DNA of 64,000 nt from Spirochaetia bacterium (GTDB lineage: Bacteria > Spirochaetota > Spirochaetia > SZUA-6 > Bin103). The stretch's first letter is position 1; every line of letters starts with the position of its first letter. The DNA is taken from positions 832,001-896,000 of the forward strand of contig CBDAOI010000003.1 of NCBI GenBank assembly GCA_965198005.1, in the 5' to 3' direction. Made by a program: the position numbers and the translations under genes. Positions 5,486 through 51,073 of this stretch are shown here, piece by piece. The notes below the pieces were generated by a model. The model worked only from the letters and a program-made list of their open reading frames with translations. It was not told the DNA's origin and searched no databases.

Positions 5486-5679
5486 TCCGTCCCTCCCTCC
5501 AGAACGACCGCATGCTACACCGGATGGCGGGCGTAACGCCACCACGGGGTGCGTCAGAGCCTGAACCGTCTTGCCCGTCTGCTGGAGACGAATGACTGCG
5601 CGGGGCTCAAGGAGCTGTTCCACGGGCGGCTGGACAGGGCAGGGACGGACGGACCGGCCGACCGGCCGAGAGGAGGAGC

Positions 5680-5708
5680 TTGACGGTGGTGTTGCACGGC
5701 GCTAAGGT
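5680..5708 (+). promoter_or_regulatory. Putative sigma70 promoter TTGACG-17-TAAGGT
   Basis: -35/-10 hexamers with a 17-nt spacer just upstream of the 5726 gene. Confidence 0.55.
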
Positions 5709-5725
5709 TGCGCCAAGGTTGGATT

Positions 5726-37173: not shown

Positions 37174-37598
37174 GCGCAGCAGCGTACGGCGCCTCGCCGG
37201 CGCTGGACAAGGGGGCGGTCACGCGCAGGATCCAGCATGTGCCGCGCCCCTGCCAGCGTCCAGGTCATGGCGAGCGCGACGCACCGCGCGGGCTCACGCG
37301 ACGGTGAGGGAATGTGGCTGCTGCGGAACCACGGCACCGCGGCCGCGTGCAGGGCAACCGGGGAGCAGATTCGGAGCCGGTGACCGCTGCGCCGCCCGGT
37401 CCAGCCGGCGACGACGCCAGGAACCGATGAACGGGTGCCGGTGCCGGCGTGAAGCAGCGATGGGCGGCGCTCCGGGAGCCTGGGGAGCGGCGCGCCCGCG
37501 GGGACGGCGCCTTGTTGCGGAACAGCCGGGACGAGGCGCGCCCGCGTGCCGGGCCGTCAGTCGTGTCGCCGCGCATCCGCAGATTGGGGTCACACCCG

Positions 37599-38414
37599 TC
37601 ACGTACGCTGGATGGTGCGGTAGCGGCGCACCGCAAGCGGGGCGAACACGGCGATGATCGCCGCCGCCCACAGCAGCGTGTAGAGCACCGGATGCTGCAG
37701 CGGCCAGACCGCGGGATCCGGCGTACCCGGGGGGATGTTGCCGAACAGCTCGCGCGTCGCCTGGGTCACGGCCGACACCGGATTCCACAGGGCGAAGGTC
37801 CGCAGCACCGGCGGCAGGCTGTCGGCGGGCACGAAGGTGTTGGCCACGAAGGTCAGCGGCATCGTCACCATGAATGAGGCGTTGTTGATCACCTCGACGC
37901 TCGGCACCAGCAGTCCGACGTAGGCCATGATCCACGAGAAGGCGTAGGCGAACGCCAGCAGCAGCGCGAATCCCGCAACCCCCGGCAGCACGCCGGTGTC
38001 GATCCGCCACCCCACCACCAGACCGGTCAGCGCCATGATCAGCAGCGACGCCGCGTTGTACACCACGTCGCTGACCGTGCGGCCCACCAGCAGTGCGCTG
38101 CGCGACATCGGCAGCGACCGGAAGCGGTTCATGATCCCCTTCTGGAGATCCTCGGCCAGACCCGCGCCGGTGAAGATCGAGCCGAACACCACCGTCTGGG
38201 CGAAGATTCCGGCGATCAGGAACTCCCGGTACGAGCCGCCGGGAATGACGATCGAGCCGCCGAACACGTAGGCGAACAGCAGCACGAACATGATCGGCGA
38301 CAGCAGTACGAACACCAGCACCTCGGGCACGCGCTTGATCTTGATCACGTTGCGCCGGGCGATCACCACGGCGTCGGAGACCGCGTTGGACACCGCGTTG
38401 AACCAGCCGCTCAT
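37599..38414 (-). CDS. ABC-2 exporter permease (DrrB-like)
   Basis: PIMFVLLFAYVFGG, D...G...RFRSLPMSR, WNPVS. Confidence 0.92.
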   Translation of the reverse strand: MSGWFNAVSNAVSDAVVIARRNVIKIKRVPEVLVFVLLSPIMFVLLFAYVFGGSIVIPGGSYREFLIAGIFAQTVVFGSIFTGAGLAEDLQKGIMNRFRSLPMSRSALLVGRTVSDVVYNAASLLIMALTGLVVGWRIDTGVLPGVAGFALLLAFAYAFSWIMAYVGLLVPSVEVINNASFMVTMPLTFVANTFVPADSLPPVLRTFALWNPVSAVTQATRELFGNIPPGTPDPAVWPLQHPVLYTLLWAAAIIAVFAPLAVRRYRTIQRT

Positions 38415-39406
38415 GTCTCCTCCTCCTCCTCATCCTCGTTCTCCTGCGGTGCGGCGCTATGGCCGGTCAGCGTGAGGAACACGTCGTCCAGCGTCGGCCG
38501 GCGCAGGCCCACGTCGCGCACCGCCACCCCCGCCTGGTCCAGGGCGCGCAGCGCCTGCGTCAGCACCGGGGAGCCGCCGGCGATGGGCGTCACCACCCGG
38601 CGCGCGCGGGCGTCTACCTGCTGTTCCCCCACGGCGAACCGGGCCAGCACCGCGCGCGCCGCCGCCAGCGCCGCCGCCACGGCTGCCGCGGCCGCCGCCG
38701 GCAGCGTCACCTCGATCCGCTCGGCCCCGACCAGACCCTTCAACTCGTCGGGCGTGCCTTCGGCGATCGCCCGGCCGTGGTCGATCACCAGCACGCGGTC
38801 GGCGAGCTGGTCCGCCTCCTCCATGTACTGGGTGGTGAGCAGCACGGTGGTGCCGCTGCCCACCATCCGGTGGATCACCTCCCAGAGCTGGCGCCGGCTG
38901 TGCGGGTCCAGGCCGGTGGTCGGCTCGTCCAGGAACAGCACCGGCGGGTCGGCCACCAGCGCGCCCGCCAAGTCGAGGCGGCGCCGCATCCCCCCGGAGT
39001 AGGTCTTGACCGGCCGGTCCCCGGCCGCGACCAGATCGAACTGCTCCAGCAGTTGGCGGGCGCGTGCGCGCGCCGGCCGCCGGCCCAGGTGATACAGGCG
39101 CCCGATCATGTCGAGGTTCTCGAACCCGGTGAGGTGCTCGTCCACCGCCGCGAACTGGCCGGACAGTCCGATCCGCCGGCGCACCTCGCGCGGCGCCGCC
39201 ACCACGTCGGCGCCGGCCACCCGGGCCATGCCGGCGTCGGGTCTGATCAGCGTGGCCAGGATCGACACCGCGGTGGTCTTGCCGGCGCCGTTGGGACCGA
39301 GCACACCCAGCACCGCGCCCTCGGCCACGGCGAGGTCGAGCCCGTTCAGGGCGGTTACGTCTCCGTACCGCTTGACCAGTCCGGTGGCTTCGACGAGGTG
39401 TGCCAT
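38411..39406 (-). CDS. ABC exporter ATP-binding protein (DrrA-like)
   Basis: GPNGAGKTT, YSGGMRRRLDLA, LDEPTTGLDP, LTTQYMEEAD, PTLDDVFL.LTG. Confidence 0.93.
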   Translation of the reverse strand: MAHLVEATGLVKRYGDVTALNGLDLAVAEGAVLGVLGPNGAGKTTAVSILATLIRPDAGMARVAGADVVAAPREVRRRIGLSGQFAAVDEHLTGFENLDMIGRLYHLGRRPARARARQLLEQFDLVAAGDRPVKTYSGGMRRRLDLAGALVADPPVLFLDEPTTGLDPHSRRQLWEVIHRMVGSGTTVLLTTQYMEEADQLADRVLVIDHGRAIAEGTPDELKGLVGAERIEVTLPAAAAAAVAAALAAARAVLARFAVGEQQVDARARRVVTPIAGGSPVLTQALRALDQAGVAVRDVGLRRPTLDDVFLTLTGHSAAPQENEDEEEEET

Positions 39407-39595
39407 GCGCCGCATGAAGCTATCGACAGCCGTCCCCCGCGGTCAACCTATACCCGCCCGGTACGCCCGGTACGGCGCGAACGAGCACCGACTGATCCCT
39501 CCAGCCATTCCATGTCGCGCTGGGTGGCGCTCAAGCGCTGCCGCAGCCGTCCCGGCGACGACGAGTGAGGATGCTTGGACAGGCGTCCGGCGGTC

Positions 39596-40441
39596 TCAGC
39601 GGAACAGGTCTTCGGTGCGTGGGCGGTTGATCATGGCCGCGGTGTGGGTGGCCGCGGCTGCCGTTGCCGGTGCGTGGGCCGGCGGTGGAAAGCCCTGCAC
39701 CAGGGCGGCCGGGATGCGCTCGGTGGATTCGCCCATTACCAGCATGGCGGCGCTGGCAATGGCGTCCGCCCGGTTGATAAGCGTGGCCTGCAGCTCGCGG
39801 CCGTACAGGTCGCGGCGGCCGCGGCGGTCGTCCAGCACCGCCAGGCCGGCGGCGCCGAGCGCGATGCCCACCGTGCCCAGCCGCCAGGGCCGGTTGCTGC
39901 TGTCGCTGATCACCACGCCGATCCGCTGGCCGGTGCCGGCGGCGATGGCCCGCTGCAGCCGGGCGGCGGTGGCGTCGGGCGCCGCCGGCAGCAGCAGCGC
40001 CGACGCGGACCGCCCGTGGTCGACGTTGGACTGGTCGATGCCGGCGTTGGCGGCTACCAGGCCGAGCCGGTGGCGGGTGATCAGCACGCCCGGGGCCGTG
40101 CGCACTACCTCGGTCGACTCGTCGAGGATGAGCTGCACCAGCCGCGCATCCTTGCCGGTCTCGGCGGCGAGGGCCGCGGCGCGGGCCGACGGCCGCACCT
40201 GGTCGAGCCGGAGCTGGCGGCCCTCCGCCTTGGAGACGATCTTCTGGGCCACCACCAGCACGTCGCCGTCGGCCAGTTCGACGCCGGCTCCGGCCAGCGC
40301 CGCCAGCAGGATCGGCGGCAGGTCGTCGCCGGCCGCCACCAGCGGAATCCCGCGCAGCCCGGTAACGGTGAGCCGGGCGTCAGCCACCTGCCGGGACGCC
40401 GCCGGCCCGGTCTCGTCGCGTGTGCCGGGAGCCGCCTGCAA
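39596..40441 (-). CDS. cofE: Coenzyme F420-0:L-glutamate ligase
   Basis: P.V..GDDL, VVAQKIVSKAEGR, ANAGIDQSN, ISDS..RPWR.G, DLYGREL..T, EDLFR. Confidence 0.93.
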   Translation of the reverse strand: MQAAPGTRDETGPAASRQVADARLTVTGLRGIPLVAAGDDLPPILLAALAGAGVELADGDVLVVAQKIVSKAEGRQLRLDQVRPSARAAALAAETGKDARLVQLILDESTEVVRTAPGVLITRHRLGLVAANAGIDQSNVDHGRSASALLLPAAPDATAARLQRAIAAGTGQRIGVVISDSSNRPWRLGTVGIALGAAGLAVLDDRRGRRDLYGRELQATLINRADAIASAAMLVMGESTERIPAALVQGFPPPAHAPATAAAATHTAAMINRPRTEDLFR

Positions 40442-40453
40442 CCGACTAGGCCG

Positions 40454-41113
40454 CTAGCCCTGGCCGACCACGCGGATACCGGCGTGGCTGAGGTCGTGGC
40501 GGCGATTGATCTGAATCAGCACGCTGGTCAGCGCCTCGGCGGCGGCGGAGTTCTCGATCGGGCCGGCGTGCCAGCCGGTCATGCCGGCGGCTTGAACCAG
40601 CTCGATCACTTTGTCGCGGGCCGCCTTCTTGTTGCCGGCGACCAGCACGTCGCACTCGATCGTGACCTCCTGCTGCAGCAGGTGGGCGGCGACGTTCTGA
40701 AACGCCGAGACCACCATCACCTCGTCGCCGAGGAACTCCTGCGCCCGCTGGCCGGCGGAGCCCTGCGCCGGGAGTTGCACCGTGCCGACCCGAGGCGGCA
40801 CCAGCGGCACCGTGACGTCGATCAGGATCTTGCCCGCGAGGCTCGGCTGCACGCTCGCCAGGGTGGCGATCTGATGCGCGGCCGGCACGGTCAGCACCAC
40901 GACGTCGGCCGCCTGCGCGGCCGCCTGGTTGGTCAGCGCGCGCGCGGTGGCGGCCGGATCGCGCTGCCGCAGACCGGCGAGCGCGGCCTGCGCCTTGGCC
41001 AGCGTGCGCGAGCCGATCAGCACCGTGTAGCCGGCCCGCGACCAGCGCTGCGCCAGCCCGGTTCCCAGGTCGCCGGTGCCGCCGAGAATGGCGATGGTTT
41101 CCCTAGTTGACAA
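40454..41113 (-). CDS. npdG: NADPH-dependent F420 reductase
   Basis: IAILGGTGDLG.GLA.RW, IGSR, DVTVPL.PP, VVSAFQNVAA, E.LTSVLI.IN. Confidence 0.92.
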   Translation of the reverse strand: MSTRETIAILGGTGDLGTGLAQRWSRAGYTVLIGSRTLAKAQAALAGLRQRDPAATARALTNQAAAQAADVVVLTVPAAHQIATLASVQPSLAGKILIDVTVPLVPPRVGTVQLPAQGSAGQRAQEFLGDEVMVVSAFQNVAAHLLQQEVTIECDVLVAGNKKAARDKVIELVQAAGMTGWHAGPIENSAAAEALTSVLIQINRRHDLSHAGIRVVGQG

Positions 41114-41588
41114 TGGTCTCTCCCTCCACCAGGTTCTCTCGCTCCACCAGCCGCACCCCGGCGCCGCGCACCGCGCAGTCACACGCCGGACAGTAGTAGC
41201 CGACCTGGATCGGCGTCCCGCACGCGCGGTGCACCAGCGCGCCGCGGTCGGACAGGTGCTTGCGGCCCCACACCGCGAGCGCGCCGGCCACCACCCCCAG
41301 CTCGTGGCCGCGGCGGGTCAGCGCGTACTCGGCGCGCGGCGGATGCTGGCTGTAGAACCGCCGGTCCACGATGCCGTGCCGTTCCAGCCGCTTGAGCCGG
41401 TGCGACAGGATGTTGGGCGCGATTCCGAACACCTGCCGCCGCAGCTCGGCGAAGCGCTGGAAGCCGCGCAGCAACTCCAGCAGGATCAGCACCGTCCAGC
41501 GGTCGCCGACGATCTCCAGCGCCCGTGCCACCGGACCGAGGCGGTCGTCCGCGGCGCCGGTGTGGTCGGCGATCGGGTTGGTTGACAT
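41103..41588 (-). CDS. HxlR-family winged-helix regulator
   Basis: ALEIVGDRWT.LIL, RF.EL, LS.RLK.L, PPR.EY.LT..G; C-terminal H..CG...C..C. Confidence 0.9.
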   Translation of the reverse strand: MSTNPIADHTGAADDRLGPVARALEIVGDRWTVLILLELLRGFQRFAELRRQVFGIAPNILSHRLKRLERHGIVDRRFYSQHPPRAEYALTRRGHELGVVAGALAVWGRKHLSDRGALVHRACGTPIQVGYYCPACDCAVRGAGVRLVERENLVEGETIVN

Positions 41589-41652
41589 TTGCTACCTGGT
41601 TGCATCCTAATACGTACGGTCCGCACCGTCCAGGTTGGGTGCCGCTCGTTCC

Positions 41653-42549
41653 ATGCACGCATCGGTCTCGATTGTCAACGTCAGCAAGGTGTTCCCCGTG
41701 CCGCCGGGGGCCACGCGCACCGTCACGCCCGCCGCCGCCTCGGCCGCCACAGCCGTAGCGCCGGCTGACGCTCCTCCCGGTAGGCGCCGCCAGCGCCGCC
41801 GCCGGCCGCGCGACCTGCTGGCCGCGCCGGCAGCCGGGCTCGAGGCGCTGCGCGGAATCACCGCCGACATCCGTCCCGGCGAGTTTCTCGCGGTCCTTGG
41901 CCCCAGCGGCTGCGGCAAGACCACGCTCCTGCGCATCGTCGGCGGCCTTATCGAGCCGACCGCGGGCACGGTCCGCATCGGCGACCGGACGGCCGCCCAG
42001 GCGCAACGGCAAAAGTGGGTGGGCTATGTATTCCAGGACCCGTCGCTGCTGCCGTGGCGCACCGTGCTGGACAACGTGCGCCTGCCGCTGCGGGTGAACC
42101 GCGCGGTGCAGCGTCCCGGCGCCACTTCGCCCGAGGAGTTGCTCCACTTGGTGCGCTTGGCGGAGTTCGCCGACTATTACCCGAGCCAACTGTCGCGCGG
42201 CATGCAGCAGCGGGTCGGCTTGGCGCGGGCGCTGGCGCTGGACCCCGCGTTGCTGCTGATGGATGAGCCGTTCGCCGCGCTCGACGAGATCACGCGCGAA
42301 CGGATGCGCTTCGAGCTGCTGCGCATCTGGGAGGCGACGCGCAAGACGGTGCTGTTCGTTACCCACAGCATCGTCGACGCGGTGCTGCTGTCCGACCGCG
42401 TGGCGGTGCTGTCGGCCCGTCCCGGACGGCTGCGCGCGGTGCTGCCGATCGGCCTGGAACGGCCGCGGGTGGCCGGAGTGGAACGCTCGCCGGAGTTCAC
42501 GGCCGCCTACCGCCGGGTGCACGACTTGGTGATGGCGGAGGCGGCCTGA
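41653..42549 (+). CDS. NitT/TauT-type ABC ATP-binding protein
   Basis: GPSGCGKTT, FQDP.LLPWRTV..NV, LLMDEPFAALD, FVTHSI. Confidence 0.92.
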   Translation: MHASVSIVNVSKVFPVPPGATRTVTPAAASAATAVAPADAPPGRRRQRRRRPRDLLAAPAAGLEALRGITADIRPGEFLAVLGPSGCGKTTLLRIVGGLIEPTAGTVRIGDRTAAQAQRQKWVGYVFQDPSLLPWRTVLDNVRLPLRVNRAVQRPGATSPEELLHLVRLAEFADYYPSQLSRGMQQRVGLARALALDPALLLMDEPFAALDEITRERMRFELLRIWEATRKTVLFVTHSIVDAVLLSDRVAVLSARPGRLRAVLPIGLERPRVAGVERSPEFTAAYRRVHDLVMAEAA

Positions 42550-43334
42550 TGCGCGCCGCCCAGCGCCCCCTGGCCCAGCCCACGGCGGCGCTGCTTCCCA
42601 CCGTGCTCAGTCTGCTGGTGGTCGGGGTCGTCTGGGAGGCCTGGATCGCAATCGCGGGCACGCCGGTCTACATGCTGCCTGCCCCTTCGGCGGTGGCGGT
42701 CCGCGTGAGCGCGGAGCCCGGCTACTTTCTGGGGCAGGGCGCGATCACGCTGGCGGAGGCGCTCGGCGGCTTCCTGCTCGGGACCGGCGTGGCGCTGGCC
42801 GCGGCCACGCTGATGGCGCACTCGCGCGCCCTGGAACGCGCTCTGTTGCCGCTGGCCGTGCTGGTCAAGGTGACGCCGATCGTGGCGGTGGCGCCGCTGC
42901 TGGTGATCTGGTTCGGGTTCGGTGTCGTGCCCAAGGTGCTGATCGCGTCGTTGATCACCTTCTTTCCCGCGCTGGTGAACGGGGTGACCGGACTGCGCGC
43001 GGTCAATCCCGGTGCGCTGGACTTTCTGCGCTCGGTGTCGGCGTCGCGGCGCGAGGTGTTCCTGACCCTGCGCGTGCCGAGCGCCTTGCCCTACCTGTTC
43101 GCGGCGTTCCGGGTGTCGATCCCGCTGTCGGTGATCGGCGCGGTGGTGGGCGAGTGGTTCAGCGCCGACCGCGGCCTGGGGGCGGTGATCATCGTCGCCC
43201 ATGCGAATCTCGACACCCCGACCCTGTTCGGGGCGATCTTTACTCTGGCGGTCATGGGCATCGGCCTGAGCCTGGCCGTCGCGGCATTGGAACGGAGGAT
43301 ACTGTTTTGGCACGAATCGACACTCATCGTGTGA
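42549..43334 (+). CDS. NitT/TauT-type ABC permease
   Basis: LPAPS, TP.VA.APLL.IWFGFG, P.ALPYLF, GAVVGE. Confidence 0.92.
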   Translation: MRAAQRPLAQPTAALLPTVLSLLVVGVVWEAWIAIAGTPVYMLPAPSAVAVRVSAEPGYFLGQGAITLAEALGGFLLGTGVALAAATLMAHSRALERALLPLAVLVKVTPIVAVAPLLVIWFGFGVVPKVLIASLITFFPALVNGVTGLRAVNPGALDFLRSVSASRREVFLTLRVPSALPYLFAAFRVSIPLSVIGAVVGEWFSADRGLGAVIIVAHANLDTPTLFGAIFTLAVMGIGLSLAVAALERRILFWHESTLIV

Positions 43335-44419
43335 CGGCCGGTGCGACACTCGGTGCGCCCCGGTTGCCGTTGCTGCGCGCCCGGCGCGCGTGGCTGGCGC
43401 TGGTGCTGGCGGCGGTGGCCGCGAGCCCGGCGCCGGCGACCGGCAAGCTGGAGATCGAGCAGGCGGCGGACCAGCCCGCGGCGGCGCAACCACCGCGCAG
43501 CATGATCTTCATGGCGGGCTTCAAGCCGCAGGCGAACCTGCCGTTCGTGGCGGCTTACGTGGCGCGGGAGAAGGGATACTTCGCCGCGCAGGGGCTCGAC
43601 GTCACCATCCACCACTCCACCGGCCAGCACCTGCAGCTCCTCCTCTCCGGCGAGGTCGACGTCACCACCGCCGCCGCCGGGTCGGTGCTCAAGCGGCGGG
43701 CGAATCCCGGCGTCCCGATCCGGGCGATCGCGCTGTTCGGGCAGCGCGGCCAGCAGACCTTCATCGCGCTCGCGGACTCGGGCATCACCAGCCCGCGCGA
43801 CTGGGAGGGCAGGACCTTCGGCTACCGCATCAGCCTGCCGCCCGAGTACCTGGCGCTGCTGGACGCCGCCGGCGTGGACCGCGCGCAGGTGCGGGAGGCA
43901 CGGGTGGGCTTCGATCCGCGCCTCCTGGTCGAGGGCCGGGTGGACGTGCTGGCGGTGTTCAAGTCGAACGAGCCCGACACCATCCGCAAGCTCGGCTTCG
44001 AGGTGGTGCAGTTCGATCCCGCCGACTTCGGCATCCCGGCGCTGGGACTCACCTACGTCACGCGCGAAGATCTGATCGCGGAGGAGCCGGACCTGATCGC
44101 GCGCTTCCTCAAGGCCACGCTCAAGGGGCTGGAGTTCTCGTTCGCGCATCCGGAGGAGACGCTGGACATCGTGCTGCGCTACGCCGAGAACGAGGACCGC
44201 GACCACATGCGGTTCATGCTGGAGGCGGAGCAGGCCGACGCCGTCTCTGCGGTCACGCGCGATCACGGGCTGGGCTGGATGACGCGCCGCCAGTGGCAGG
44301 AGTTCCACGACCTGCTGCTGCGGTACCAGGCGCTGGACCGGGAGCTGGACGTGGAGCAGGTGTTCACCGCGCGATTCCTGGAGGCGGCGTACCAGGACGG
44401 CCGCCTGGTCTGGCCATGA
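43331..44419 (+). CDS. NMT1/THI5-like ABC substrate-binding protein
   Basis: GTGA overlap; signal peptide; YVA.EKGYF...GLDV, SGI..P.D.EG. Confidence 0.88.
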   Translation: MTAGATLGAPRLPLLRARRAWLALVLAAVAASPAPATGKLEIEQAADQPAAAQPPRSMIFMAGFKPQANLPFVAAYVAREKGYFAAQGLDVTIHHSTGQHLQLLLSGEVDVTTAAAGSVLKRRANPGVPIRAIALFGQRGQQTFIALADSGITSPRDWEGRTFGYRISLPPEYLALLDAAGVDRAQVREARVGFDPRLLVEGRVDVLAVFKSNEPDTIRKLGFEVVQFDPADFGIPALGLTYVTREDLIAEEPDLIARFLKATLKGLEFSFAHPEETLDIVLRYAENEDRDHMRFMLEAEQADAVSAVTRDHGLGWMTRRQWQEFHDLLLRYQALDRELDVEQVFTARFLEAAYQDGRLVWP

Positions 44420-44800
44420 CCCAGCCCGCTGTGGACCGGCCGGGCCGTGACCTTCGACGGCAGCTGGCACCGGGTGCCCGACGCCGGCCTCAACCCGCTG
44501 CCGGTGCAGCGCCCGATCTCGCTCTGGTTCGGCGGCGGGGAGGAGCGCGTGCTGCGCCGCATCGCGCGCTTGGCCGACGGCTGGATGCCGCAGTTTCAGC
44601 CGGACGAGGCCGGCCGCTCGCTCCTGGCCCGCATGCACGGCTACGCCCGCGAGCACGGCCGCGACCCGGCCGCGATCGGCCTCAACGGCCGAATCGTCTC
44701 GGCCTGCGCGGCGTCGAACAGCACGTCGCACTGCTGGAACGATTTCATGTCGCAACGAACCGCGCAGCACCGCGCACGGGGTCACCGTAGTCGACACCAC
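44416..44800 (+). pseudogene. Deleted duplicate of the LLM F420-dependent oxidoreductase
   Basis: Near-identical to 50609-50872 and 50968-51070, with two internal deletions. Confidence 0.9.
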
Positions 44801-45004
44801 GGTTCGCCTGACGGGCCTCGTCCCGCCAACCGATGGCTCGGACATTGCTACCCGACCCCGGCCGTGCCGGTGACGCAGCATGTTCGACCGGCGGCCACGT
44901 GGCCATGGCCGGCGCCGGCGTGGTTCGGATCGTGACCGCCACTCACTGGGCCTGCTTCTCCCGTGCCTTGGCCGCTGCCCATATCTGTTTCCAGTCCTCC
45001 ACGG

Positions 45005-45688
45005 TCACCTCGGTACCGTGGCCGGCAGCGCCGGCAGGGCGCGCCGCATCCCGGCCCAGGTGGCGGCCTGGCTCTGTGCCAGTTCGGCGGCGAGCGCCTC
45101 GTCCACGCCCAGCCGGCTGGCGGCGGCGAGCTGGGCGAACTGCAGCGCCGAGGTGCCCTTGGTGACCGCCGCGTAGCACATCTTGAGCGCCGACGCGCGC
45201 CCGATCGCGCCGCCCAGGTCGCGCACCACGAGGCCGCCTCCCTCCAGCGGCGCCAGCAGGTGAGCGTCCGAGCCGGAGGTGTAGAACCGCGGTCCGCTGC
45301 CGTTGGCCGGCGGCCCGCCGATGATGCCGGCGTCGACGTAGGCGGCGCGGGTAGCTCCGATCAGCGCCGTGATGCGCTCCGTGGTAGCGGGCGCGATGGC
45401 GTTGCAGTCGGCATAGGGCGGGGTGGCGCCGGTCGCCGTCATCGCCTGCGCCACCCCGCTCGCTGCCGCCACCACCGCCGCCGGCGGCATGATCGACAGC
45501 ACCAGGTCGGCCTGGGCCAGCAGCGCGCCGACGCTGCCCAGGTCGCGGATACCCGCCCCGGCGGCCAGCCCGCCGGTGCGCGGCGACCGGCCGGCGAGCG
45601 AGGTAACCACGTCGAAGCCGCGGCTGCCGAGCAGCCGTCCGACCGCGTGCCCCATGTTGCCGGGGCTGATGATCGCGATTGTCTTCAA
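45005..45688 (-). pseudogene. NAD(P)-dependent oxidoreductase (DUF1932-type), 3'-truncated
   Basis: AGGAGG RBS; IISPGNMG, DCNAIAP, DAGIIG.PP, ASALKMCYA..TKG; the expected RW..EM.EI segment is missing. Confidence 0.75.
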
Positions 45689-45793
45689 GACGAGCCTCCT
45701 GTGTAATCGACCCGATTCAATGCTCGCCGTTCCCAGATCGTACGCAGCACCGGTGGGTCGCGTCATGCGTCGCGGACGCGACCGGATCCGCCG

Positions 45794-46217
45794 TCAATCG
45801 TCGTCACCCGGCTGGCCGAGTCGGCGCTGTACGACGCCGCGGTGCGCCTTGCCCTGCAGGCGTTGTTTGCGGGAGGCGCGGGATGGGGCGGGTCGCTTGC
45901 CGGGGCCGGGGTTCGGCGAGCGCCTGCGCAATGAGCGCCGACAGCCACGCGCGCGCGTCGTGGCGGTTCGCCTCTTGGGCGCGAAACCGGCGCCCGGTGA
46001 TCACCGGCGTCGCGTGCGTGGTGACACGCGTGTCGGCGATGCGCACCAAGCGCCGCCGCACCTCCGGCGCCAGCGACGGGAAGCGGGCGGCGTCGAAGCG
46101 GAGCTGCACTGGGGTGGCCACTTCGTTCACGTTCTGATCGCCCGGGCCGCTGCTCTGCACGAACCGTTCGGCGAGTTCCTCCTCCGGTATGGCAATCCAC
46201 GCCGCGATCTGCACGAC
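45794..46217 (-). pseudogene. arfB: Degenerate alternative ribosome-rescue factor ArfB
   Basis: IPEEEL..RF..SSGPGDQNVN.VAT.VQLRFD, R.Q..NR..A; GGQ changed to GDQ; basic tail KQRLQGKAHRG lies in another frame. Confidence 0.82.
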
Positions 46218-46289
46218 GCACGCTACGACGAAGCACGTCGGTGCGCACCGTAGCCGGTCCACCCACACGAAGCACCGTAGGCCTCATTC

Positions 46290-46604
46290 TCAATCATGGA
46301 TAGATGCGCGGTGGGGTTGGTAGGCCAGTCCAAGCTCCCGGTAGAGTTGCTGTCTCAAGCCCGGTTTCACCCGATGCGTATTGAGGTACATCTGTGTCTC
46401 GAACGAGACTATCCGCCGGCGGCGCTTCCGCCAATTCTTGGAGCTGACCTCCCGCACCTCAACCGGCGTCCGCACGAAGCGCTGCACCGCCGCCTCGAAT
46501 GTCAGATCGCCCGTATCAACCTCGACCGGCTTCTCCTTCTCATCGTTCGTCGGCTCATAGTCGTGTGCCGGCACCTCGATCACACGTTTCTTGCGTCGCC
46601 TCAT
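46290..46604 (-). CDS. Small hypothetical protein
   Basis: GGAGG RBS; charged ORF (HDYEPTNDEKEKPVEVD...FEAAVQRFV); true 3' end uncertain. Confidence 0.5.
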   Translation of the reverse strand: MRRRKKRVIEVPAHDYEPTNDEKEKPVEVDTGDLTFEAAVQRFVRTPVEVREVSSKNWRKRRRRIVSFETQMYLNTHRVKPGLRQQLYRELGLAYQPHRASIHD

Positions 46605-46864
46605 GGCTTCGTCCTCCGCGGTGTATGGGTTGACCTCCCACCCCGTGTCCGTACAATGATGCCCAAACGAAATTCGACCATCGCGTCTCGGTTCATGCCG
46701 GGTCGCTGGTCGAACACAACAGCCGCGTGAGGGCGGAGGCTAGCTATAGCTACCTCGGCCCGCGGTGAATAGGTCAGACCCAAGATCACCTCTGTGCTGA
46801 GCACGCGGTGGTCCAATCTCAACACGGCCCGGCACCTTTGCGTCCGGGCCACGGGAGGAATCGC

Positions 46865-47371
46865 ATGATTCACACTGCGCTTAGGACCATCCTCGGAGGA
46901 GCGGTCATCGTTCTGGCAGTCGTTTCTACCCAGCCAGCGTTCTCCCAGGAGGCTGACCGCAATTCGGGAGACGACAGAGCATTCCTGCAATACGAGATGC
47001 AGAAAGTAGATCCGTGGGGACCCTTCGCTCTGAATCTGTTGCTGGGTCTCGGTATAGGATCCTTCGTGCAGGGAGACACCACCGGTGGCCTGCTCGTCGC
47101 CGGTGGGGAGGTGGTTGGCGCAGGTCTGCTGATCGCCTGGTTGAGCAATCCGGAATCTGGGAACGCTCTGCTAATTGGTGGTGTGGTATTGCTTTCCGCT
47201 GCACGTATCGCAGGGCTCGTCATTCCCTTCACCTACGCTAACGGGTTCAACGAGAAACTGCGAAAGGACCTAGGGATTGCGATTTCAGACGTCTCGCTGA
47301 TCGTGCCAGGAGTCAACGGCGAGGCTGACGACGGGTACGGCGTGAACGTCACCTTTACCAGAGAGTCCTGA
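46865..47371 (+). CDS. Borrelia P13-like membrane protein
   Basis: GGGAGGA RBS; signal peptide; K.DPWGPFALNLLLGLGIGSFVQGDTTGG and PFTYANGFNEKLRK.L resemble the P13 family. Confidence 0.8.
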   Translation: MIHTALRTILGGAVIVLAVVSTQPAFSQEADRNSGDDRAFLQYEMQKVDPWGPFALNLLLGLGIGSFVQGDTTGGLLVAGGEVVGAGLLIAWLSNPESGNALLIGGVVLLSAARIAGLVIPFTYANGFNEKLRKDLGIAISDVSLIVPGVNGEADDGYGVNVTFTRES

Positions 47372-47543
47372 TTTTGGCCAAGCGGGCGAGAATGTCATAG
47401 AATGAAACGGCCCCCTGTGTGGGGTGGGGGCCGAATACATAGCCGCCTTGACGGCGGGGGTCGGAGAACTGACGTCTCCGGGGCTCTTGAGATTGCCAGT
47501 CCGAAAGCATCAAGAGCATAGTGCGCCTCCCGTGCGCCGGAGT

Positions 47544-47826
47544 TGGGAAGTCGGACAGGCCCATAGTACCCGGGAAACCCGCGAACAAGGACGGGAGCCG
47601 CCGCAGGCGGCGCGGCTATGGTGAACCCTACACGGGCACGCAGGCGGAAACGCCGGATACAGCCAGGGAGCACCTACGGTCACGCCGGGCGGCAGCAACC
47701 GGGCGCGGAGCGGGTGGAGGAAAGGGGCTTGGCCAAAGGGAATCCGCGCCAGCAAAACACGCCCCGGACACCGCGCCGGCAATACGGCGTGCACAGTGCG
47801 CTGGAGCGGATACGTCAAGCAGCGCG
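47544..47826 (+). mobile_element. Group II intron remnant (DII-DIV region and first RT codons)
   Basis: gggaagtcggacaggcccatagtacc..gaa.cc..cgaacaa; gcggagcgggtggaggaaagggg...ccaaagggaa; followed by (V)HSALERIRQAA, then breaks off. Confidence 0.75.
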
Positions 47827-48089
47827 ACGTCGACGACCGCCTGCTGGAGTACCGCTTCGGCAGCATCCAGTTCGACCTCACCATGGAGCAGCTTCGCGAG
47901 CGCCGCGACGACCTGCTGGCGTGGCACCCGGATCGCAAGCTGGCGGCCGATGGCGAGACGGTGCGCGAGTTCGCGACACGCGTCATGGCCGTGACCGACG
48001 AGATCGTGGAGCGATTCGACATCGCCACCGCGTTGGACGGCACATTCGACTACGTCCAGCTGTTTACCGATTCGCTGGCCGAGTTGGAG

Positions 48090-48428
48090 TCAGTCCTCGA
48101 TGGCCAGCGCTACTCTGAGGCTCCGGTTCAGGTCCTCCATCTTCACGCTCGACAGCGTGCCCAAGTAGTCAGTGAGAGCGGCCTTGGGCAGGCTCACCAG
48201 CTCGTCGCAGTGCACCGCACTATCGTGTTTCAGCCCCTCGTGTACCCCGACGGGAACCTGGGTCTCTATTCCGGCCCGGGTCGTGAATATCGGAGCGCAC
48301 ACCACGGTCGCGAACCTCGACTCGATCAGGATCTGGCGACTGACTACCACGAACGCCCGCCGTCGCCTGGGGTCGCGGCGCGCTCGGCGCGTCGCGTGCT
48401 TGACCAGATAGATTTCTCCACGCTTCAT
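48090..48428 (-). CDS. PemK/MazF family toxin
   Basis: [28 protein letters not shown]...CD.L.S. Confidence 0.9.
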
Positions 48429-48652
48429 GCGTCGTCCTGATACTCCAGCACCTCACGCGCCTCTCTGTTCAATTCGTCCACGTGGGCGTCGATCGCGGCA
48501 AGCTCCTTCCGGTCGCGTTCGGCACGCCGGAGCGCCCGCAGGTAGCTCCACGAAGCCTCCTCGATGAACGCCGATCGATTCCTCAACTCGACCTCCTCGG
48601 AGAGAGCCCGCATGAGCTCTTCGGAGAGTGTTACAGATGTCTTGACTTTCAT
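48425..48652 (-). CDS. RHH-type antitoxin
   Basis: [13 protein letters not shown]...NRSAFIEEA...LNREA.EVLEYQ; ATGA overlap with toxin; GGAGG RBS. Confidence 0.85.
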
Positions 48653-48692
48653 GCCTCCATAGATACCACTTTGGCGTGGATATGTCAGCAGC

Positions 48693-48749
48693 GTGCCGTG
48701 GTCCATCTACGGCGGCGCGTTGGCGGAAAGCTGGGAAACGCCCGACCCC
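48693..48749 (+). pseudogene. Isolated fragment of a family-5 SBP gene
   Basis: Reads VPWSIYGGALAESWETPDP; 26 nt (48721-48746) identical to 55200-55225 and 63456-63481. Confidence 0.75.
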
Positions 48750-48842
48750 GAGGGGCGCCGCAAGCACGGTCTGAGAAGTTTCTTCCGCGGACTCAGAACA
48801 TGTGGTTGACACCATATGATTTCTATAGCATGTTGTGTGCGT

Positions 48843-49214
48843 ATGGCGTGGGTCGTTGGGATTGGCGACGAGTTTGAGCCAGAGTTCGACGATCTGCATG
48901 AGGACGTTCGTATGGAGATTCTCGCCTTGACGCGCCTTCTGCAGCAGTTCGGGCCACAATTGGGGCGTCCCCGCGTCGATACGCTGAACGGGTCGCGTCA
49001 CGCGAACATGAAAGAACTACGATTCAGTACGGCAGATGGCGAGTGGCGAGTAGCCTTCGCGTTCGATCCGAAGCGCAAGGCGATCCTACTCGTTGCCGGA
49101 GACAAGTCCGGCGGCAGTGAACGACGATTCTATCGCGGACTGATTCGGAAGGCCGATGACAGATTCGACGGGCATCTACGCCGTTTGGAACATGGGAGGG
49201 AATCATGGCTGTGA
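48843..49214 (+). CDS. RelE/HigB (Gp49-like) toxin
   Basis: GPQLGRPRVDTLNGSRHANMKELRF, WRVAFAFDP.R.AILLVAGDKSG. Confidence 0.92.
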   Translation: MAWVVGIGDEFEPEFDDLHEDVRMEILALTRLLQQFGPQLGRPRVDTLNGSRHANMKELRFSTADGEWRVAFAFDPKRKAILLVAGDKSGGSERRFYRGLIRKADDRFDGHLRRLEHGRESWL

Positions 49215-49528
49215 GTGTTGACGACAAGATCGAGAAACTGAGCCATGCTCAGCGTAAGAGAGTCGAGGCACGTGCCGCTGACCTCATTGCCGAAGAGATG
49301 ACGCTGCGCGAACTAAGGCATGCACGCAAGCTCACGCAGGTAAGCATCGCCAAGAAACTTGGGATTACCCAGGACAGCGTCTCACGGCTTGAGAAGCGTA
49401 GCGACCTCTTGCTATCTACCCTCCGCAAGACGGTGGAGGCGATGGGCGGAGACCTGTCCCTGGTTGCCAAATTTCCGGATCGTGCACCCGTGGTGCTCTC
49501 GGGCATCGCCGAGGTTGAACCGGAATGA
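49205..49528 (+). CDS. XRE/HTH antitoxin (HigA-like)
   Basis: TLRELR.ARKLTQ..IAKKLGITQDSVSRLEKRSDLLLSTLR..VEAMGG.L. Confidence 0.92.
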   Translation: MAVSVDDKIEKLSHAQRKRVEARAADLIAEEMTLRELRHARKLTQVSIAKKLGITQDSVSRLEKRSDLLLSTLRKTVEAMGGDLSLVAKFPDRAPVVLSGIAEVEPE

Positions 49529-49668
49529 TTGCACGTCGAGTTGCTCGACAGCAGCACGGGGTGGTCAGTTCAACAGGCAAGGCGCAGGAGCCCGAAGAGC
49601 CCGAAGCTCCGAAGGACCCATCAACGGGTGAGGGGCGGAGCTGCGGTCAGGTGCGCGCTCGGCGGGTC

Positions 49669-49920
49669 GCGGCCGTGGGCGAGACGGCAGCCACCCCCGC
49701 TTGGCTGATCGTCCAGCACTCGCCGGACCTCGATTTCCAGAAGCGATGTCTGACTCTCATGCGCCACGCGGCCACCCAAGGCCAGGCAGCCATGCGAAAT
49801 GTCGCCTATCTGGAGGACCGGGTACTCGTTCGCGAGGGGAAGCCGCAGACATACGGCACCCAGGTACAACCCGGTCGAGCCGAGCCGTTCCTTATTCGCG
49901 ACCAGGATCGGGTCGAGCAG
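49669..49920 (+). pseudogene. DUF6624-like gene fragment
   Basis: AWLIVQHSPDLDFQ..CL, AYLEDRV.V..GKPQ.YGTQ. Confidence 0.65.
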
Positions 49921-50144
49921 GAGGACCGCGACCACATGCGGTTCATGCTGGAGGCGGAGCAGGCCGACGCCGTCTCTGCGGTCACGCGCGATCACGGGCT
50001 GGGCTGGATGACGCGCCGCCAGTGGTGGGAGTTGACCTGCTGCCGCGGTACCAGGCGCTGGACCGGGAGCTGGACGTGGAGCAGGTGTTCACCGCGCGAT
50101 TCCTGGAGGCGGCGTACCAGGACGGCCGGCTGGTCTGGCCATGA
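49921..50144 (+). pseudogene. Duplicated 3' end of the THI5-like SBP gene
   Basis: Near-identical to 44192-44419 with a small frameshifting lesion near 50025-50040. Confidence 0.9.
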
Positions 50145-50164
50145 CCCGGCCCGTAAGGTAGGTT

Positions 50165-51073
50165 ATGAGAATGAAACTGGGCGTGGTTTTCCCGCAGATC
50201 GAGATCGGCGCGGACCCGGGGGCGGTGCGCGCGTACGGGCAGGCGGTGGAGCAGCTCGGCTACCACCACATCCTGGCCTACGAGCACGTGGTCGGCGCCA
50301 ACACCGCCAGCCGGCCCGAGTGGCGCGGGCCGTATGACCTCGACTCGCTGTTCCACGAACCGTTCGTGCTGTTCGGCTACCTGGCGGGGTTGACCGAGCG
50401 GATCGAGTTCGCCACCGGCATCGTGATCCTGCCGCAGCGCCAGACCGTGCTGGTGGCGAAGCAGGCCGCCGCGCTCGACGTGCTGAGCGGCGGCCGGCTG
50501 CGGCTCGGGATCGGCATCGGCTGGAACCGGGTCGAGTACGAGGCGCTCGGCACCGATTTCCACAACCGCGGCCGCCGCTGCGAGGAACAGGTCGCGCTGC
50601 TGCGCGCGCTGTGGACCGACCGGGCGGTGACCTTCGACGGCGCTTGGCACCGGGTGACCGACGCCGGCCTCAACCCGCTGCCGGTGCAGCGCCCGATCCC
50701 GCTCTGGTTCGGCGGCGGGGAGGAGCGCGTGCTGCGCCGCATCGCGCGCTTGGCCGACGGCTGGATGCCGCAGTTCCAGCCGGACGAGGCCGGCCGCGCG
50801 CTCCTTGCGCGCATGCACGGCTACGCCCGAGAGCACGGCCGCGACCCCGCCGCGATCGGACTCAACGGCCGGATGGTGGCCGACCCCGCCGCGGCCCACA
50901 CCTGGACCGGCCGCATCCGCGCCTGGCGGGAGATCGGGGCCACCCACCTCAGCATCGACACGATGCGCCTCGGCCTGCGCGGCGTCGAACAGCACGTCGC
51001 ACTGCTGGAACGATTTCATGTCGCAACGAACCGCGCAGCACCGCGCACGGGGTCACCGTCGTCGACTCCATGA
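50165..51073 (+). CDS. LLM-class F420-dependent oxidoreductase
   Basis: GVVFPQ.E, YEHVVG, FHEPFVLFG.LA, ILPQRQT.LVAKQAA.LD.LSGGR.RLG.G.GWN..EY, DGWMP. Confidence 0.92.
   Translation: MRMKLGVVFPQIEIGADPGAVRAYGQAVEQLGYHHILAYEHVVGANTASRPEWRGPYDLDSLFHEPFVLFGYLAGLTERIEFATGIVILPQRQTVLVAKQAAALDVLSGGRLRLGIGIGWNRVEYEALGTDFHNRGRRCEEQVALLRALWTDRAVTFDGAWHRVTDAGLNPLPVQRPIPLWFGGGEERVLRRIARLADGWMPQFQPDEAGRALLARMHGYAREHGRDPAAIGLNGRMVADPAAAHTWTGRIRAWREIGATHLSIDTMRLGLRGVEQHVALLERFHVATNRAAPRTGSPSSTP

What the first reader, a model, noticed from the sequence alone, without database searches (positions are those of the whole stretch)
39596..51073. Candidate F420/FO deazaflavin uptake-and-salvage module
Seen: hxlR-npdG-cofE is divergent across 64 bp from a NitT/TauT ABC importer with an NMT1/THI5-like binding protein. 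An F420-dependent LLM oxidoreductase follows it directly (deleted copy at 44416, intact copy at 50165). No cofC, cofD or cofGH/fbiC is in the window. Known: THI5-like SBPs bind heterocyclic vitamin precursors (ThiY; RibY predicted for riboflavin), CofE polyglutamylates F420-0, and NpdG reduces F420. Inference: the transporter imports FO, F420-0 or F420 from community members, then CofE matures it and NpdG recharges it under HxlR control. I know of no characterised F420 importer.
Basis: partly seen in the sequence, partly recalled or inferred. Interest (0 to 1): 0.75.

Follow-up and report, generated by a model that had tools for sequence, protein, structure and literature searches.

The report
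Candidate deazaflavin (FO/F420) uptake-and-salvage module
This bacterium keeps the enzymes that finish, recharge and use the cofactor F420 but has none that make it, and they sit beside a vitamin-type uptake pump that related genomes carry only when they cannot make the F420 precursor themselves, so the pump is a testable candidate importer of this cofactor.

Summary
cofE, npdG and hxlR are divergent across 64 bp from an ABC ATPase, a permease and a ThiY-like binding protein. A deleted F420-type LLM follows, and an intact copy lies 5.7 kb downstream.

The genome has no cofC, cofD, cofG or cofH. Ten congeners have no cofD or cofG. The block, and 2-9 scattered F420-type LLMs per genome, occur in the same 7 of 41 related genomes.

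Orthologues of the binding protein (44-70% identity) are common in Dehalococcoidia, some titled SAR202. In 121 genomes, 111 have cofE, 36 have cofG, 46 have the binding protein and none has both.

Context links recur:
- one genome has pump-cofD-cofC in one operon;
- six have npdG within 3.5 kb;
- five have hxlR beside the pump.

Neither thiC nor ribH explains the distribution.

Best reading (about 0.58): a deazaflavin importer, with CofE rebuilding the glutamate tail and NpdG reducing the cofactor.

Open points:
- FO alone cannot feed CofE without CofC/CofD, so F420-0 or F420-n must also enter, or unknown enzymes exist;
- 28 cofE-only genomes lack this pump;
- the kin-corrected test is underpowered.

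Nothing is shown biochemically. Two earlier scan notes propose deazaflavin importers of other families on other DNA.

The parts
39596..40441 (-). cofE, F420-0:gamma-glutamyl ligase (281-aa ORF)
   Evidence: PF01996 E 9.9e-73. TIGR01916 254.9 bits against a cut-off of 180.65. In a CofE tree it nests among Dehalococcoidia CofEs, with at most 48% identity and a long branch.
40454..41182 (-). npdG/fno, NADPH-dependent F420 reductase (242-aa ORF; the profile match begins at residue 30, so the true start is probably near 41095)
   Evidence: PF03807 E 1.2e-17. TIGR01915 177.9 bits against a cut-off of 149.8. It is the only copy in the genome.
41103..41588 (-). HxlR-family transcription regulator
   Evidence: PF01638 E 8.9e-26. 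Homologues of 56-71% identity lie beside the pump in 5 Dehalococcoidia loci.
41589..41652 (.). 64-bp divergent intergenic region. A conserved block of about 35 nt spans 41581-41616.
   Evidence: Alignment of 7 congeneric loci. No strong palindrome, sigma-70 match or riboswitch was found. A regulatory role is inferred only.
41653..42549 (+). ABC ATPase of a NitT/TauT-type importer
   Evidence: PF00005 E 2.7e-31. Best NCBIfam matches are TauB, SaoA and NtrCD-like models, all below their cut-offs.
42549..43334 (+). ABC permease (BPD_transp_1)
   Evidence: PF00528 E 1.2e-24. It is the only clear permease of this type in the genome; the next phmmer hit has E 7e-4.
43307..44419 (+). Substrate-binding protein, NMT1/THI5 (ThiY-like) fold, 370 aa, with an N-terminal hydrophobic helix
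   Evidence: PF09084 E 1.5e-41. Start chosen at TTG after GGAGGA. Closest solved structure is ThiY 3IX1, E 4.4e-25. AF2 model pLDDT 89.9. Foldseek ranks 3IX1 first, target-normalised TM 0.79. Orthologues are mutually exclusive with cofG.
44424..44799 (+). Remnant of the F420-type LLM gene that follows the binding-protein gene in congeners (ORF 44447-44935)
   Evidence: 94-97% identical to the intact copy but lacking 450 nt and 88 nt. The LLM is intact in the same position in 5 of 6 congeners and split between two frames in G003.
49914..50153 (+). Fragment of the binding-protein gene's 3' end, 4-nt deletion
   Evidence: 95.5% identical to 44185-44428.
50165..51073 (+). Intact F420-dependent luciferase-like (LLM) oxidoreductase
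   Evidence: PF00296 E 2.2e-51. TIGR03619 276.4 bits against a cut-off of 166.9.

Best explanation
The three-gene ABC importer (ATPase, permease, ThiY-like binding protein) takes up a deazaflavin released by other community members: the F420 headgroup FO and/or F420 with no or few glutamates. Inside the cell CofE adds or extends the gamma-glutamyl tail, which by analogy with folate salvage would retain the cofactor and tune it. NpdG reduces it with NADPH. The reduced cofactor serves the adjacent LLM and about nine other F420-type LLM enzymes in the genome. HxlR, transcribed divergently, probably controls both arms.

Shown:
- gene identities;
- absence of the biosynthetic genes;
- conservation of the block;
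- the complementary distribution with cofG;
- the context links.

Inferred:
- the substrate;
- the direction of transport;
- the order of steps;
- the regulation.
For: 1. No route to make the cofactor. No CofD (PF01933), cofH (TIGR03551) or CofC (PF01983) is found in the genome. No cofG scores over its cut-off in any of 41 related genomes, and CofD occurs in 1 of 41, outside the genus. tblastn with a real cofD and cofC from G074 finds nothing at E<=0.01.

2. The cofactor is nonetheless used. cofE and npdG score above their equivalog cut-offs. Two LLMs score above the TIGR03619 cut-off, and seven more score 208-229 bits against the TIGR03560 cut-off of 231.

3. Co-inheritance. The strong cofE, npdG, the binding-protein orthologue and all TIGR03619-like LLMs (E<=1e-30, 2-9 per genome, at scattered sites) occur in the same 7 of 41 genomes. 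None occurs in two complete congeners, G009 and G010. The block order is conserved in 6 congeners.

4. Complementarity with FO synthase in 121 Dehalococcoidia genomes. cofE is in 111, cofG in 36 and the binding protein in 46. None has both cofG and the binding protein; 46 have the binding protein only, 36 have cofG only and 39 have neither (Fisher p 4.5e-10, not corrected for kinship). Of 21 genomes with cofD and cofE but no cofG, 16 carry the pump. The states are interleaved on a CofE tree, which needs at least 16 changes for the pump and 13 for cofG; well-supported branches alone force 4-5 changes in each genotype class.

5. Independent context links.
- G074 has ATPase-permease-binding protein-cofD-cofC on one strand (TIGR01819 301 against 257; TIGR03552 110 against 105) and no cofG.
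- npdG above its cut-off lies within about 1.5-3.5 kb of the pump in 6 of 47 loci, in at least 2-3 lineages.
- An F420-type LLM lies 7 kb away in G111.

6. Family precedent. The same fold binds FAMP, thiamin and PQQ in solved structures. RibXY of the same COG families imports riboflavin (PMC4418817, passages read).

7. Weak hint of expression. Contigs from two RNA libraries, with 0-3 differences, cover parts of npdG, hxlR, the ATPase and the binding-protein gene. The tool warns that DNA can be present in such libraries.
Against: 1. Without CofC and CofD, FO cannot become F420-0, the substrate of CofE. In this genome the pump would therefore have to carry F420-0 or F420-n, a larger anionic ligand than any known for this fold. 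Otherwise unknown enzymes must exist.

2. The window's binding protein groups (support 99) with those of mostly cofD-positive genomes: 6 of its 7 nearest neighbours. No F420-specific subclade explains point 1.

3. 28 of 56 cofE-only genomes lack the pump. Five complete ones were checked individually: two have no homologue and three have only 28-32% identical ones.

4. Most orthologous loci have only housekeeping neighbours. None of 28 loci has cofE, npdG or an LLM within 10 kb.

5. The closest solved relatives bind a thiamin pyrimidine or thiamin. These lineages lack thiC, and one pump-bearing genome has tenA.

6. The independent-pairs test on well-supported branches has only 4-6 pairs and cannot reach significance (median p 0.5-1). 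A CofE gene tree is only a proxy for the species tree.

7. The completeness of the 121 genomes is not given, and many are small draft assemblies.

8. There is no binding, transport or cofactor measurement.
Confidence: 0.58

Rival explanations
1. ThiXYZ-type importer of the thiamin pyrimidine (HMP or formylaminopyrimidine) or of thiamin. On this reading its position beside F420 genes is coincidental.
For: - The closest solved structures are ThiY with FAMP (3IX1, E 4.4e-25, target-normalised TM 0.79) and a thiamin-bound binding protein (4NMY).
- thiC is missing from all 24 genomes of the window's family and from 5 of 5 pump-bearing Dehalococcoidia genomes tested.
- tenA is present in pump-bearing G045.
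Against: - thiC is equally missing in 5 of 5 complete cofG-positive genomes that lack the pump, and in the pump-less congeners G009 and G010. The need for HMP therefore does not predict the pump.
- The window's genome has no ThiE (PF02581), no TenA homologue and no ThiC, so it could not use HMP. This carries the 90% completeness caveat, and ThiN and ThiD were not searched.
- No TPP riboswitch lies upstream in the window or in 7 orthologous loci.
- Identity to ThiY is only about 26%.
- This reading does not explain the exclusivity with cofG, the cofD-cofC operon or the npdG links.
Confidence: 0.14
2. An ssu-like catabolic unit. The pump imports the substrate of the adjacent LLM (for example a sulfonate or another small organic compound). 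NpdG plays the part of the reductase (the SsuE analogue) that supplies reduced cofactor. The cofactor itself arrives by some other route.
For: - In 6 congeners the LLM follows the binding-protein gene directly, 28-60 nt downstream.
- The ATPase, permease and binding protein give their best NCBIfam matches to taurine, sulfonate and Sao systems, all below cut-off.
- The layout of ABC pump, LLM and NAD(P)H-dependent reductase recalls ssuEADCB (recalled, not tested here).
Against: - Outside the genus the pump stands without any LLM. None of 28 loci has one within 10 kb, and 1 of 47 has one 7 kb away.
- This reading does not explain the exclusivity with cofG or the cofD-cofC operon.
- In the window itself the LLM next to the pump is a deleted remnant, yet the pump genes are intact.
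- The genome would still need an unexplained source of F420.
Confidence: 0.12
3. A RibXYZ-type riboflavin (flavin) importer.
For: - RibXY of Chloroflexus (same COG0600/COG0715 families) imports riboflavin, and RibY binds flavins (PMC4418817, passages read).
- FO and riboflavin are close in shape. One paper presumes that FO enters yeast by riboflavin routes (PMC8859854, passages read).
Against: - No FMN riboswitch lies upstream in the window or in 7 orthologous loci.
- Lumazine synthase (ribH) is present in 115 of 121 genomes, including 43 of 46 with the pump, so riboflavin supply does not track the pump.
- This reading does not explain the exclusivity with cofG.
- I could not compare the sequence with RibY, because none was available from a tool.
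Confidence: 0.08

Closest known systems
ThiXYZ / ThiY (Bacillus halodurans ThiY, PDB 3IX1; thiamin-bound binding protein 4NMY)
   Same: Same fold and the same three-part NitT/TauT-type ABC architecture. It is the best sequence and structure match (E 4.4e-25; Foldseek E 3e-27, target-normalised TM 0.79). Both scavenge a heterocyclic cofactor part.
   Different: - About 26% identity.
- No TPP riboswitch.
- No thiamin salvage genes in this genome.
- The distribution follows cofG, not thiC.
- The proposed ligand is a tricyclic deazaflavin.
RibXY(Z) riboflavin importer of Chloroflexi (Caur_0816-0817)
   Same: Same COG families. It imports an isoalloxazine that is nearly the same shape as FO, and was shown by complementation of an E. 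coli ribB mutant (PMC4418817).
   Different: No FMN riboswitch here. The pump co-occurs with ribH (43 of 46 pump-bearing genomes) and is complementary to cofG instead. Sequence relatedness to RibY was not tested.
Putative F420-0 ABC transporter of Actinobacteria (NCBIfam TIGR03868/TIGR03869/TIGR03873)
   Same: Same proposed job, uptake of an F420 precursor next to F420 genes. It is likewise predicted from genomic context and, as far as I recall, is untested.
   Different: It is a different transporter family. The genome's best match to TIGR03868 scores 24.6 bits against a cut-off of 392.4, at another locus. That this family is of the FecB/BtuF type, and that Haft and Selengut proposed it, is recalled and comes from no call.
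PqqT, PQQ-binding protein (PDB 9B1V)
   Same: A related binding-protein fold that scavenges a tricyclic redox cofactor (Foldseek E 2.5e-13).
   Different: A distant relative (15-17% identity) with a different ligand.
Folate salvage (importer plus folylpolyglutamate synthetase)
   Same: Same logic: import the cofactor with a short tail, then add gamma-glutamates inside the cell. This is an analogy from general knowledge.
   Different: Different cofactor and enzymes. The genome's second CofE-like gene (C4:38170-38928) is the TIGR04132/FolC2-like type and is not part of this block.

Membership tests
NitT/TauT-type ABC importer (COG0715/COG0600/COG1116) | An ABC ATPase, a BPD_transp_1 permease and an NMT1/SsuA-type binding protein encoded together | tested here: met
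   PF00005, PF00528 and PF09084 on three adjacent co-oriented genes. TIGR01728 SsuA_fam E 1.4e-16, below its cut-off.
ThiXYZ (HMP/FAMP importer) | Binding protein homologous to ThiY | tested here: met
   3IX1 E 4.4e-25; Foldseek rank 1, target-normalised TM 0.79, 26% identity.
ThiXYZ (HMP/FAMP importer) | TPP riboswitch upstream | tested here: not met
   No Rfam match at gathering score in 7 orthologous loci. None at E<=0.1 in window 34-54 kb.
ThiXYZ (HMP/FAMP importer) | Occurs with the enzymes that use HMP (TenA, ThiD, ThiE), in genomes that lack thiC | tested here: not met
   In this genome ThiE, TenA and ThiC were not found; ThiD and ThiN were not searched. thiC is absent both in 5 of 5 genomes with the pump and in 5 of 5 genomes without it.
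RibXY(Z) riboflavin importer | FMN riboswitch upstream | tested here: not met
   No FMN riboswitch was found.
RibXY(Z) riboflavin importer | Sequence orthology to RibY of Chloroflexus | not tested
   No RibY sequence could be obtained from a tool.
TIGR03868/69/73 putative F420-0 ABC transporter | Score above the model's cut-off | tested here: not met
   The best match in the genome scores 24.6 bits against 392.4, at another locus.
CofE (F420-0:gamma-glutamyl ligase) | Score above the equivalog cut-off of TIGR01916 | tested here: met
   254.9 against 180.65.
CofE (F420-0:gamma-glutamyl ligase) | Acts on F420-0 made by CofC/CofD | tested here: not met
   No cofC or cofD is found in the genome. 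The source of the substrate must be external or unknown.
NpdG/Fno (NADPH:F420 oxidoreductase) | Score above the equivalog cut-off of TIGR01915 | tested here: met
   177.9 against 149.8.
F420-dependent LLM (TIGR03619) | Score above the family cut-off | tested here: met
   276.4 against 166.9 for 50165-51073. The remnant at 44447 scores 64.6.
F420-dependent LLM (TIGR03619) | Uses F420 rather than FMN | not testable with these tools
   Needs an enzyme assay.
HxlR-family regulator | HxlR-type winged helix domain | tested here: met
   PF01638 E 8.9e-26. Operator and ligand were not tested.

The most novel reading that the evidence does not exclude
This ThiY-like ABC family is a widespread deazaflavin importer that underlies F420 cross-feeding. 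In the marine and sponge-associated Dehalococcoidia sampled here, about two thirds of the genomes that use F420 cannot make its headgroup and live on FO or short-tailed F420 released by neighbours.

In cofE-only genomes such as this one, the pump would bring in F420-0 or short-tailed F420, and CofE would act as a retention and tail-remodelling enzyme, as in folate salvage. In some lineages a secreted MA-clan peptidase encoded between npdG and the pump may trim the glutamate tail outside the cell before uptake.
Probability: 0.35. Interest if true: 0.88.

Novelty: new variant of a known kind. Interest (0 to 1): 0.75.

Why it matters
F420 is treated as a cofactor that each user makes for itself. 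The 2021 review I searched never uses the words uptake, scavenging or salvage. My other searches found no characterised FO or F420 importer.

If this pump carries a deazaflavin:
- F420 joins B12, thiamin and PQQ as a traded 'public good'.
- The many incomplete F420 pathways in abundant ocean and sponge bacteria are explained.
- Predictions of who can use F420 from genomes must change.
- Biotechnology gains a way to feed FO or F420 to production hosts instead of building the radical-SAM FO synthase into them.

The claim is directly testable with one purified protein, because FO is fluorescent.

Tried and rejected
- **Earlier scan notes.** A search of this genome for 'F420' returned nothing. A search by the binding protein's sequence returned an unrelated locus.
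- **Conserved neighbours.** The first 28 orthologous loci showed only housekeeping genes: PFK, PfkB kinase, SAM synthetase, SAH hydrolase, AroB/AroK, TauE, rhodanese, SDR.
- **Operator search.** In the 64-bp intergenic region I found only 6-nt palindromes and no sigma-70 match. I make no operator claim.
- **FDOR-A enzymes (PF04075).** No match in the genome, but the control genomes were silent too, so this is uninformative.
- **HIT-domain gene.** It lies between npdG and hxlR in three congeners and I considered it as a stand-in for CofC/CofD. I rejected it as part of the block because the window and G003 lack it there and the window's genome has its homologue on another contig.
- **Independent-pairs sign test.** Run on the CofE tree, it is underpowered (4-6 pairs).
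- **ThiY ligand residues.** The paper is not held, so I made no pocket comparison. The structure tool returns no coordinates, so I could not measure the pocket.
- **Papers that gave nothing on uptake.** PMC8305020 and PMC13040438, and the SAR202 papers PMC5395668 and PMC6946804, which mention F420 only as an enzyme label.
- **Read laying.** Parts of the stretch without RNA-library cover, and the many 'joints' with 21-41-letter sides in metagenome contigs, are not interpreted.
- **Not run.** Complex prediction, the protein atlas and the representative search.

Full report
**What is in the window**

On the minus strand:
- cofE, 39596-40441 (TIGR01916 254.9 bits, cut-off 180.65).
- npdG, 40454-41182 (TIGR01915 177.9, cut-off 149.8).
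- An HxlR-family regulator, 41103-41588.

After 64 bp, on the plus strand:
- An ABC ATPase, 41653-42549.
- A permease, 42549-43334.
- An NMT1/THI5-type binding protein. I start it at TTG 43307, 7 nt after GGAGGA, and it ends at 44419.

The LLM gene that follows is a remnant. Compared with the intact copy at 50165-51073 (TIGR03619 276.4, cut-off 166.9), it lacks 450 nt and a further 88 nt. The intact copy is preceded by a 240-nt fragment of the binding-protein 3' end with a 4-nt deletion (49914-50153).

The 5 kb between the two copies has lower G+C (0.61-0.63 against about 0.72). It holds a Gp49/HTH toxin-antitoxin-like pair and other small genes.

In five of six congeners the LLM sits intact directly after the binding-protein gene. 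In the sixth (G003) the match is split between two frames. Genes that flank cofE in the window lie on the other side of the block in congeners. The window's copy of the region is therefore rearranged. A DNA contig from another study's run matches 44698-45130 with no differences, which supports the junction between the remnant and its neighbour.

**The genome cannot make F420 by the known route**

The window lies in a 4.89-Mb, 4-contig genome rated 90.4% complete.
- It has no match to CofD (PF01933), cofH (TIGR03551) or CofC (PF01983).
- No cofG reaches its cut-off in it or in 40 relatives.
- CofD appears in 1 of 41 genomes, outside the genus.
- tblastn with a bona fide cofD and cofC taken from genome G074 finds nothing at E<=0.01.
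- Several congeners are single-contig genomes rated 95-98% complete, so assembly gaps are an unlikely explanation.
- cofH was searched only in the window's own genome.

**Yet it looks like an F420 user**

Besides the module's LLM, the genome has one more LLM above the TIGR03619 cut-off. Seven more best match TIGR03560 at 208-229 bits (cut-off 231.4), and there is one truncated copy.

A second F420_ligase-family gene (C4:38170-38928) best matches the folate-type TIGR04132 (202 bits, below its cut-off). It also occurs in congeners that lack the module, so I set it aside.

**Co-inheritance among relatives**

In 41 genomes of the same order, four features occur in exactly the same seven genomes (G000, G001, G003, G005, G006, G007, G008):
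- the strong cofE;
- npdG above its cut-off;
- the binding-protein orthologue (77-82% identity);
- every TIGR03619-like LLM at E<=1e-30 (2-9 per genome, at scattered sites).

None occurs in the complete congeners G009 and G010, or in 30 genomes of other genera. G002 and G004, rated 81% and 76% complete, lack them too.

These seven are kin, so this may be a single evolutionary event. It does show that the module travels with a genome-wide set of F420-type enzymes.

**The binding-protein clade elsewhere**

A protein search found thousands of homologues. The nearest outside the genus (55-70% identity) come from records titled Dehalococcoidia, Chloroflexi or SAR202 cluster.

In 28 such loci with 10-kb flanks:
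- the three pump genes are conserved together;
- none has cofE, npdG or an LLM nearby, and two have hxlR;
- the other neighbours are housekeeping genes.

**Whole-genome profiles change the picture**

Five complete pump-bearing genomes all have cofE and no cofG. I then scored one fixed sample of 121 genomes of that order:

| Feature | Genomes of 121 |
|---|---|
| Binding protein (E<=1e-60) | 46 |
| cofE above cut-off | 111 |
| cofG (E<=1e-20) | 36 |
| cofD (E<=1e-20) | 56 |
| ribH | 115 |

The cross-tabulation gives:
- 0 genomes with both cofG and the pump, 46 with the pump only, 36 with cofG only and 39 with neither (Fisher p 4.5e-10, uncorrected for kinship).
- 35 of the 36 cofG genomes also have cofD.
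- 16 of the 21 genomes with cofD and cofE but no cofG carry the pump.
- 28 of the 56 cofE-only genomes carry it.
- Two pump-bearing genomes, both small drafts, lack cofE.

On a CofE tree of 112 rows the genotypes are interleaved. The tree needs at least 16 changes for the pump and 13 for cofG, and well-supported branches alone force 4-5 changes in each genotype class. In independent pairs the two traits never go the same way. With only 4-6 pairs on supported branches, however, the sign test cannot reach significance. The completeness of these genomes is not reported to me.

**Context links found once flanks were fetched**

I fetched flanks for 40 more loci of that sample.
- **cofD-cofC operon.** In G074 the order on one strand is ATPase, permease, binding protein, cofD (TIGR01819 301.2, cut-off 257.45), cofC (TIGR03552 110.2, cut-off 105). 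That genome has no cofG. These are exactly the enzymes needed to turn imported FO into F420-0.
- **npdG.** Six of 47 loci (G082, G094, G065, G120, G080, G128) have an npdG above its cut-off (170-183 bits) within about 1.5-3.5 kb of the pump, in at least two or three lineages.
- **hxlR.** HxlR homologues (56-71% identity) flank the pump in G086 and G079, divergently as in the window, and also in G105, G045 and L044.
- **LLM.** One locus (G111) has an LLM above the TIGR03619 cut-off 7 kb away.

In the binding-protein tree the window's protein sits in a clade of eight (support 99) with G074, G086, G079 and four others. Six of those seven neighbours are cofD-positive.

**Tests of the rivals**

*Thiamin pyrimidine.*
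- For: the best solved relatives are ThiY with FAMP and a thiamin-bound protein; thiC is absent from the window's whole family and from 5 of 5 pump-bearing Dehalococcoidia genomes; and G045 has tenA.
- Against: thiC is just as absent from 5 of 5 complete cofG-positive genomes without the pump, and from the pump-less congeners. The window's genome shows no ThiE, TenA or ThiC. No TPP riboswitch is present.

*Riboflavin.*
- For: RibXY of the same COG families imports riboflavin (PMC4418817, passages read).
- Against: ribH is present in 43 of 46 pump-bearing genomes, and no FMN riboswitch is found.

*Substrate of the LLM.* The LLM is next to the pump only in this genus.

**Structure**

An AlphaFold model built from 45 sequences has mean pLDDT 89.9. 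Foldseek ranks ThiY, the thiamin-bound binding protein, THI5, TauA/SsuA and the PQQ-binding PqqT. The fold is thus one that repeatedly scavenges heterocyclic cofactors. I could not inspect the pocket.

**What remains unexplained**

CofE needs F420-0, and FO cannot become F420-0 without CofC and CofD. In this genome, and in the 28 pump-bearing cofE-only genomes, one of two things must hold:
- the pump also carries F420-0 or F420-n, or
- unknown enzymes replace CofC and CofD.

The retention of cofD and cofC next to the pump in G074 argues for FO import there. A binder of the deazaflavin headgroup that tolerates the side chain would reconcile both cases, but this is inference.

Half of the cofE-only genomes have no such pump. 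Five complete ones were checked one by one, so another route must exist.

In four cofE-only genomes a roughly 410-aa Peptidase_MA_2 protein with a signal-like N-terminus lies between npdG and the pump. Extracellular trimming of the glutamate tail is an attractive idea but untested, and the window's genome has no such gene.

**Expression and literature**

Contigs from two RNA libraries, with 0-3 differences, cover parts of npdG, hxlR, the ATPase and the binding-protein 3' end. The tool notes that DNA can be present in such libraries, so this is only a hint.

Literature:
- Full-text searches for F420 with transporter, uptake, salvage, scavenging, auxotroph or importer found no characterised importer.
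- The 2021 FEMS review contains none of the words uptake, scaveng- or salvag- (term search of the full text).
- NCBIfam does hold a model named F420-O_ABCperi (TIGR03868), from a different transporter family, which this genome does not match.
- Earlier notes of this scan describe two other candidate deazaflavin importers on other DNA, one ECF-type and one TIGR03868-type. I did not test those.
- Supplementary files of the papers were not consulted.

**Verdict**

It is a new predicted substrate for a known kind of cofactor-scavenging ABC system, with a clear first experiment.

Noticed in passing
window 44185-44799 and 49914-51070: A partial duplication of the binding-protein 3' end plus the LLM gene, 94-97% identical between copies. 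One copy keeps the binding protein whole and the other keeps the LLM whole. The 5 kb between them has lower G+C. Compared with congeners, the drrA-like ABC gene and its neighbour have moved to the cofE side.
   Followed up: partly
window 48816-49528: A Gp49-like (HigB-type) gene and an HTH (HigA-type) gene, overlapping by 10 nt. This is a probable toxin-antitoxin pair inside the lower-G+C insert.
   Followed up: no
window 46808-47371: An ORF matching the Borrelia membrane protein P13 family (PF05628, E 4e-22), which is unexpected in a 70% G+C genome.
   Followed up: no
window 36151-39415: A TraB/PrgY/GumN-family gene, an unannotated 379-aa ORF and a DrrA-like ABC ATPase lie downstream of cofE on the same strand. 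In congeners the latter two lie about 7 kb beyond the LLM instead.
   Followed up: partly
G000:C4:38170-38928 (locus L057 8170-8928): A second CofE-fold gene that best matches TIGR04132 (putative folate gamma-glutamate ligase, 202 bits, below its cut-off). It is present in congeners with and without the F420 block.
   Followed up: partly
L191 4345-5577; L201 4903-6117; L196 10828-12066; L200 about 4876-6024: In four cofE-only Dehalococcoidia genomes a roughly 410-aa Peptidase_MA_2 protein with a signal-like N-terminus is encoded between npdG and the pump. It could trim the F420 glutamate tail outside the cell; this is untested.
   Followed up: partly
L013 12415-12969; L015 3254-4561; L017 12543-14144: A HIT-domain gene sits between npdG and hxlR in three congeners but not in the window or in G003. 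The window's genome has its homologue at C2:527622-528206.
   Followed up: partly
whole genome G000 and family f1: thiC is absent from all 24 genomes of the family, and ThiE and TenA were not found in G000. The lineage looks like a thiamin auxotroph. Neither CofD nor YvcK (PF01933) occurs in 23 of 23 family members.
   Followed up: partly
L019 (congener G007): The public record of a congener is titled 'Spirochaetia bacterium'. Yet the nearest relatives of the module's binding protein, HxlR and CofE are in Dehalococcoidia, which suggests lateral transfer of the pump-hxlR unit. The taxonomy of the window's genome was not checked.
   Followed up: no
window 41700-41830: The ABC ATPase has an insertion of about 45 residues, rich in Ala, Pro and Arg, near its N-terminus. 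Its length varies between congeners (alignment).
   Followed up: no
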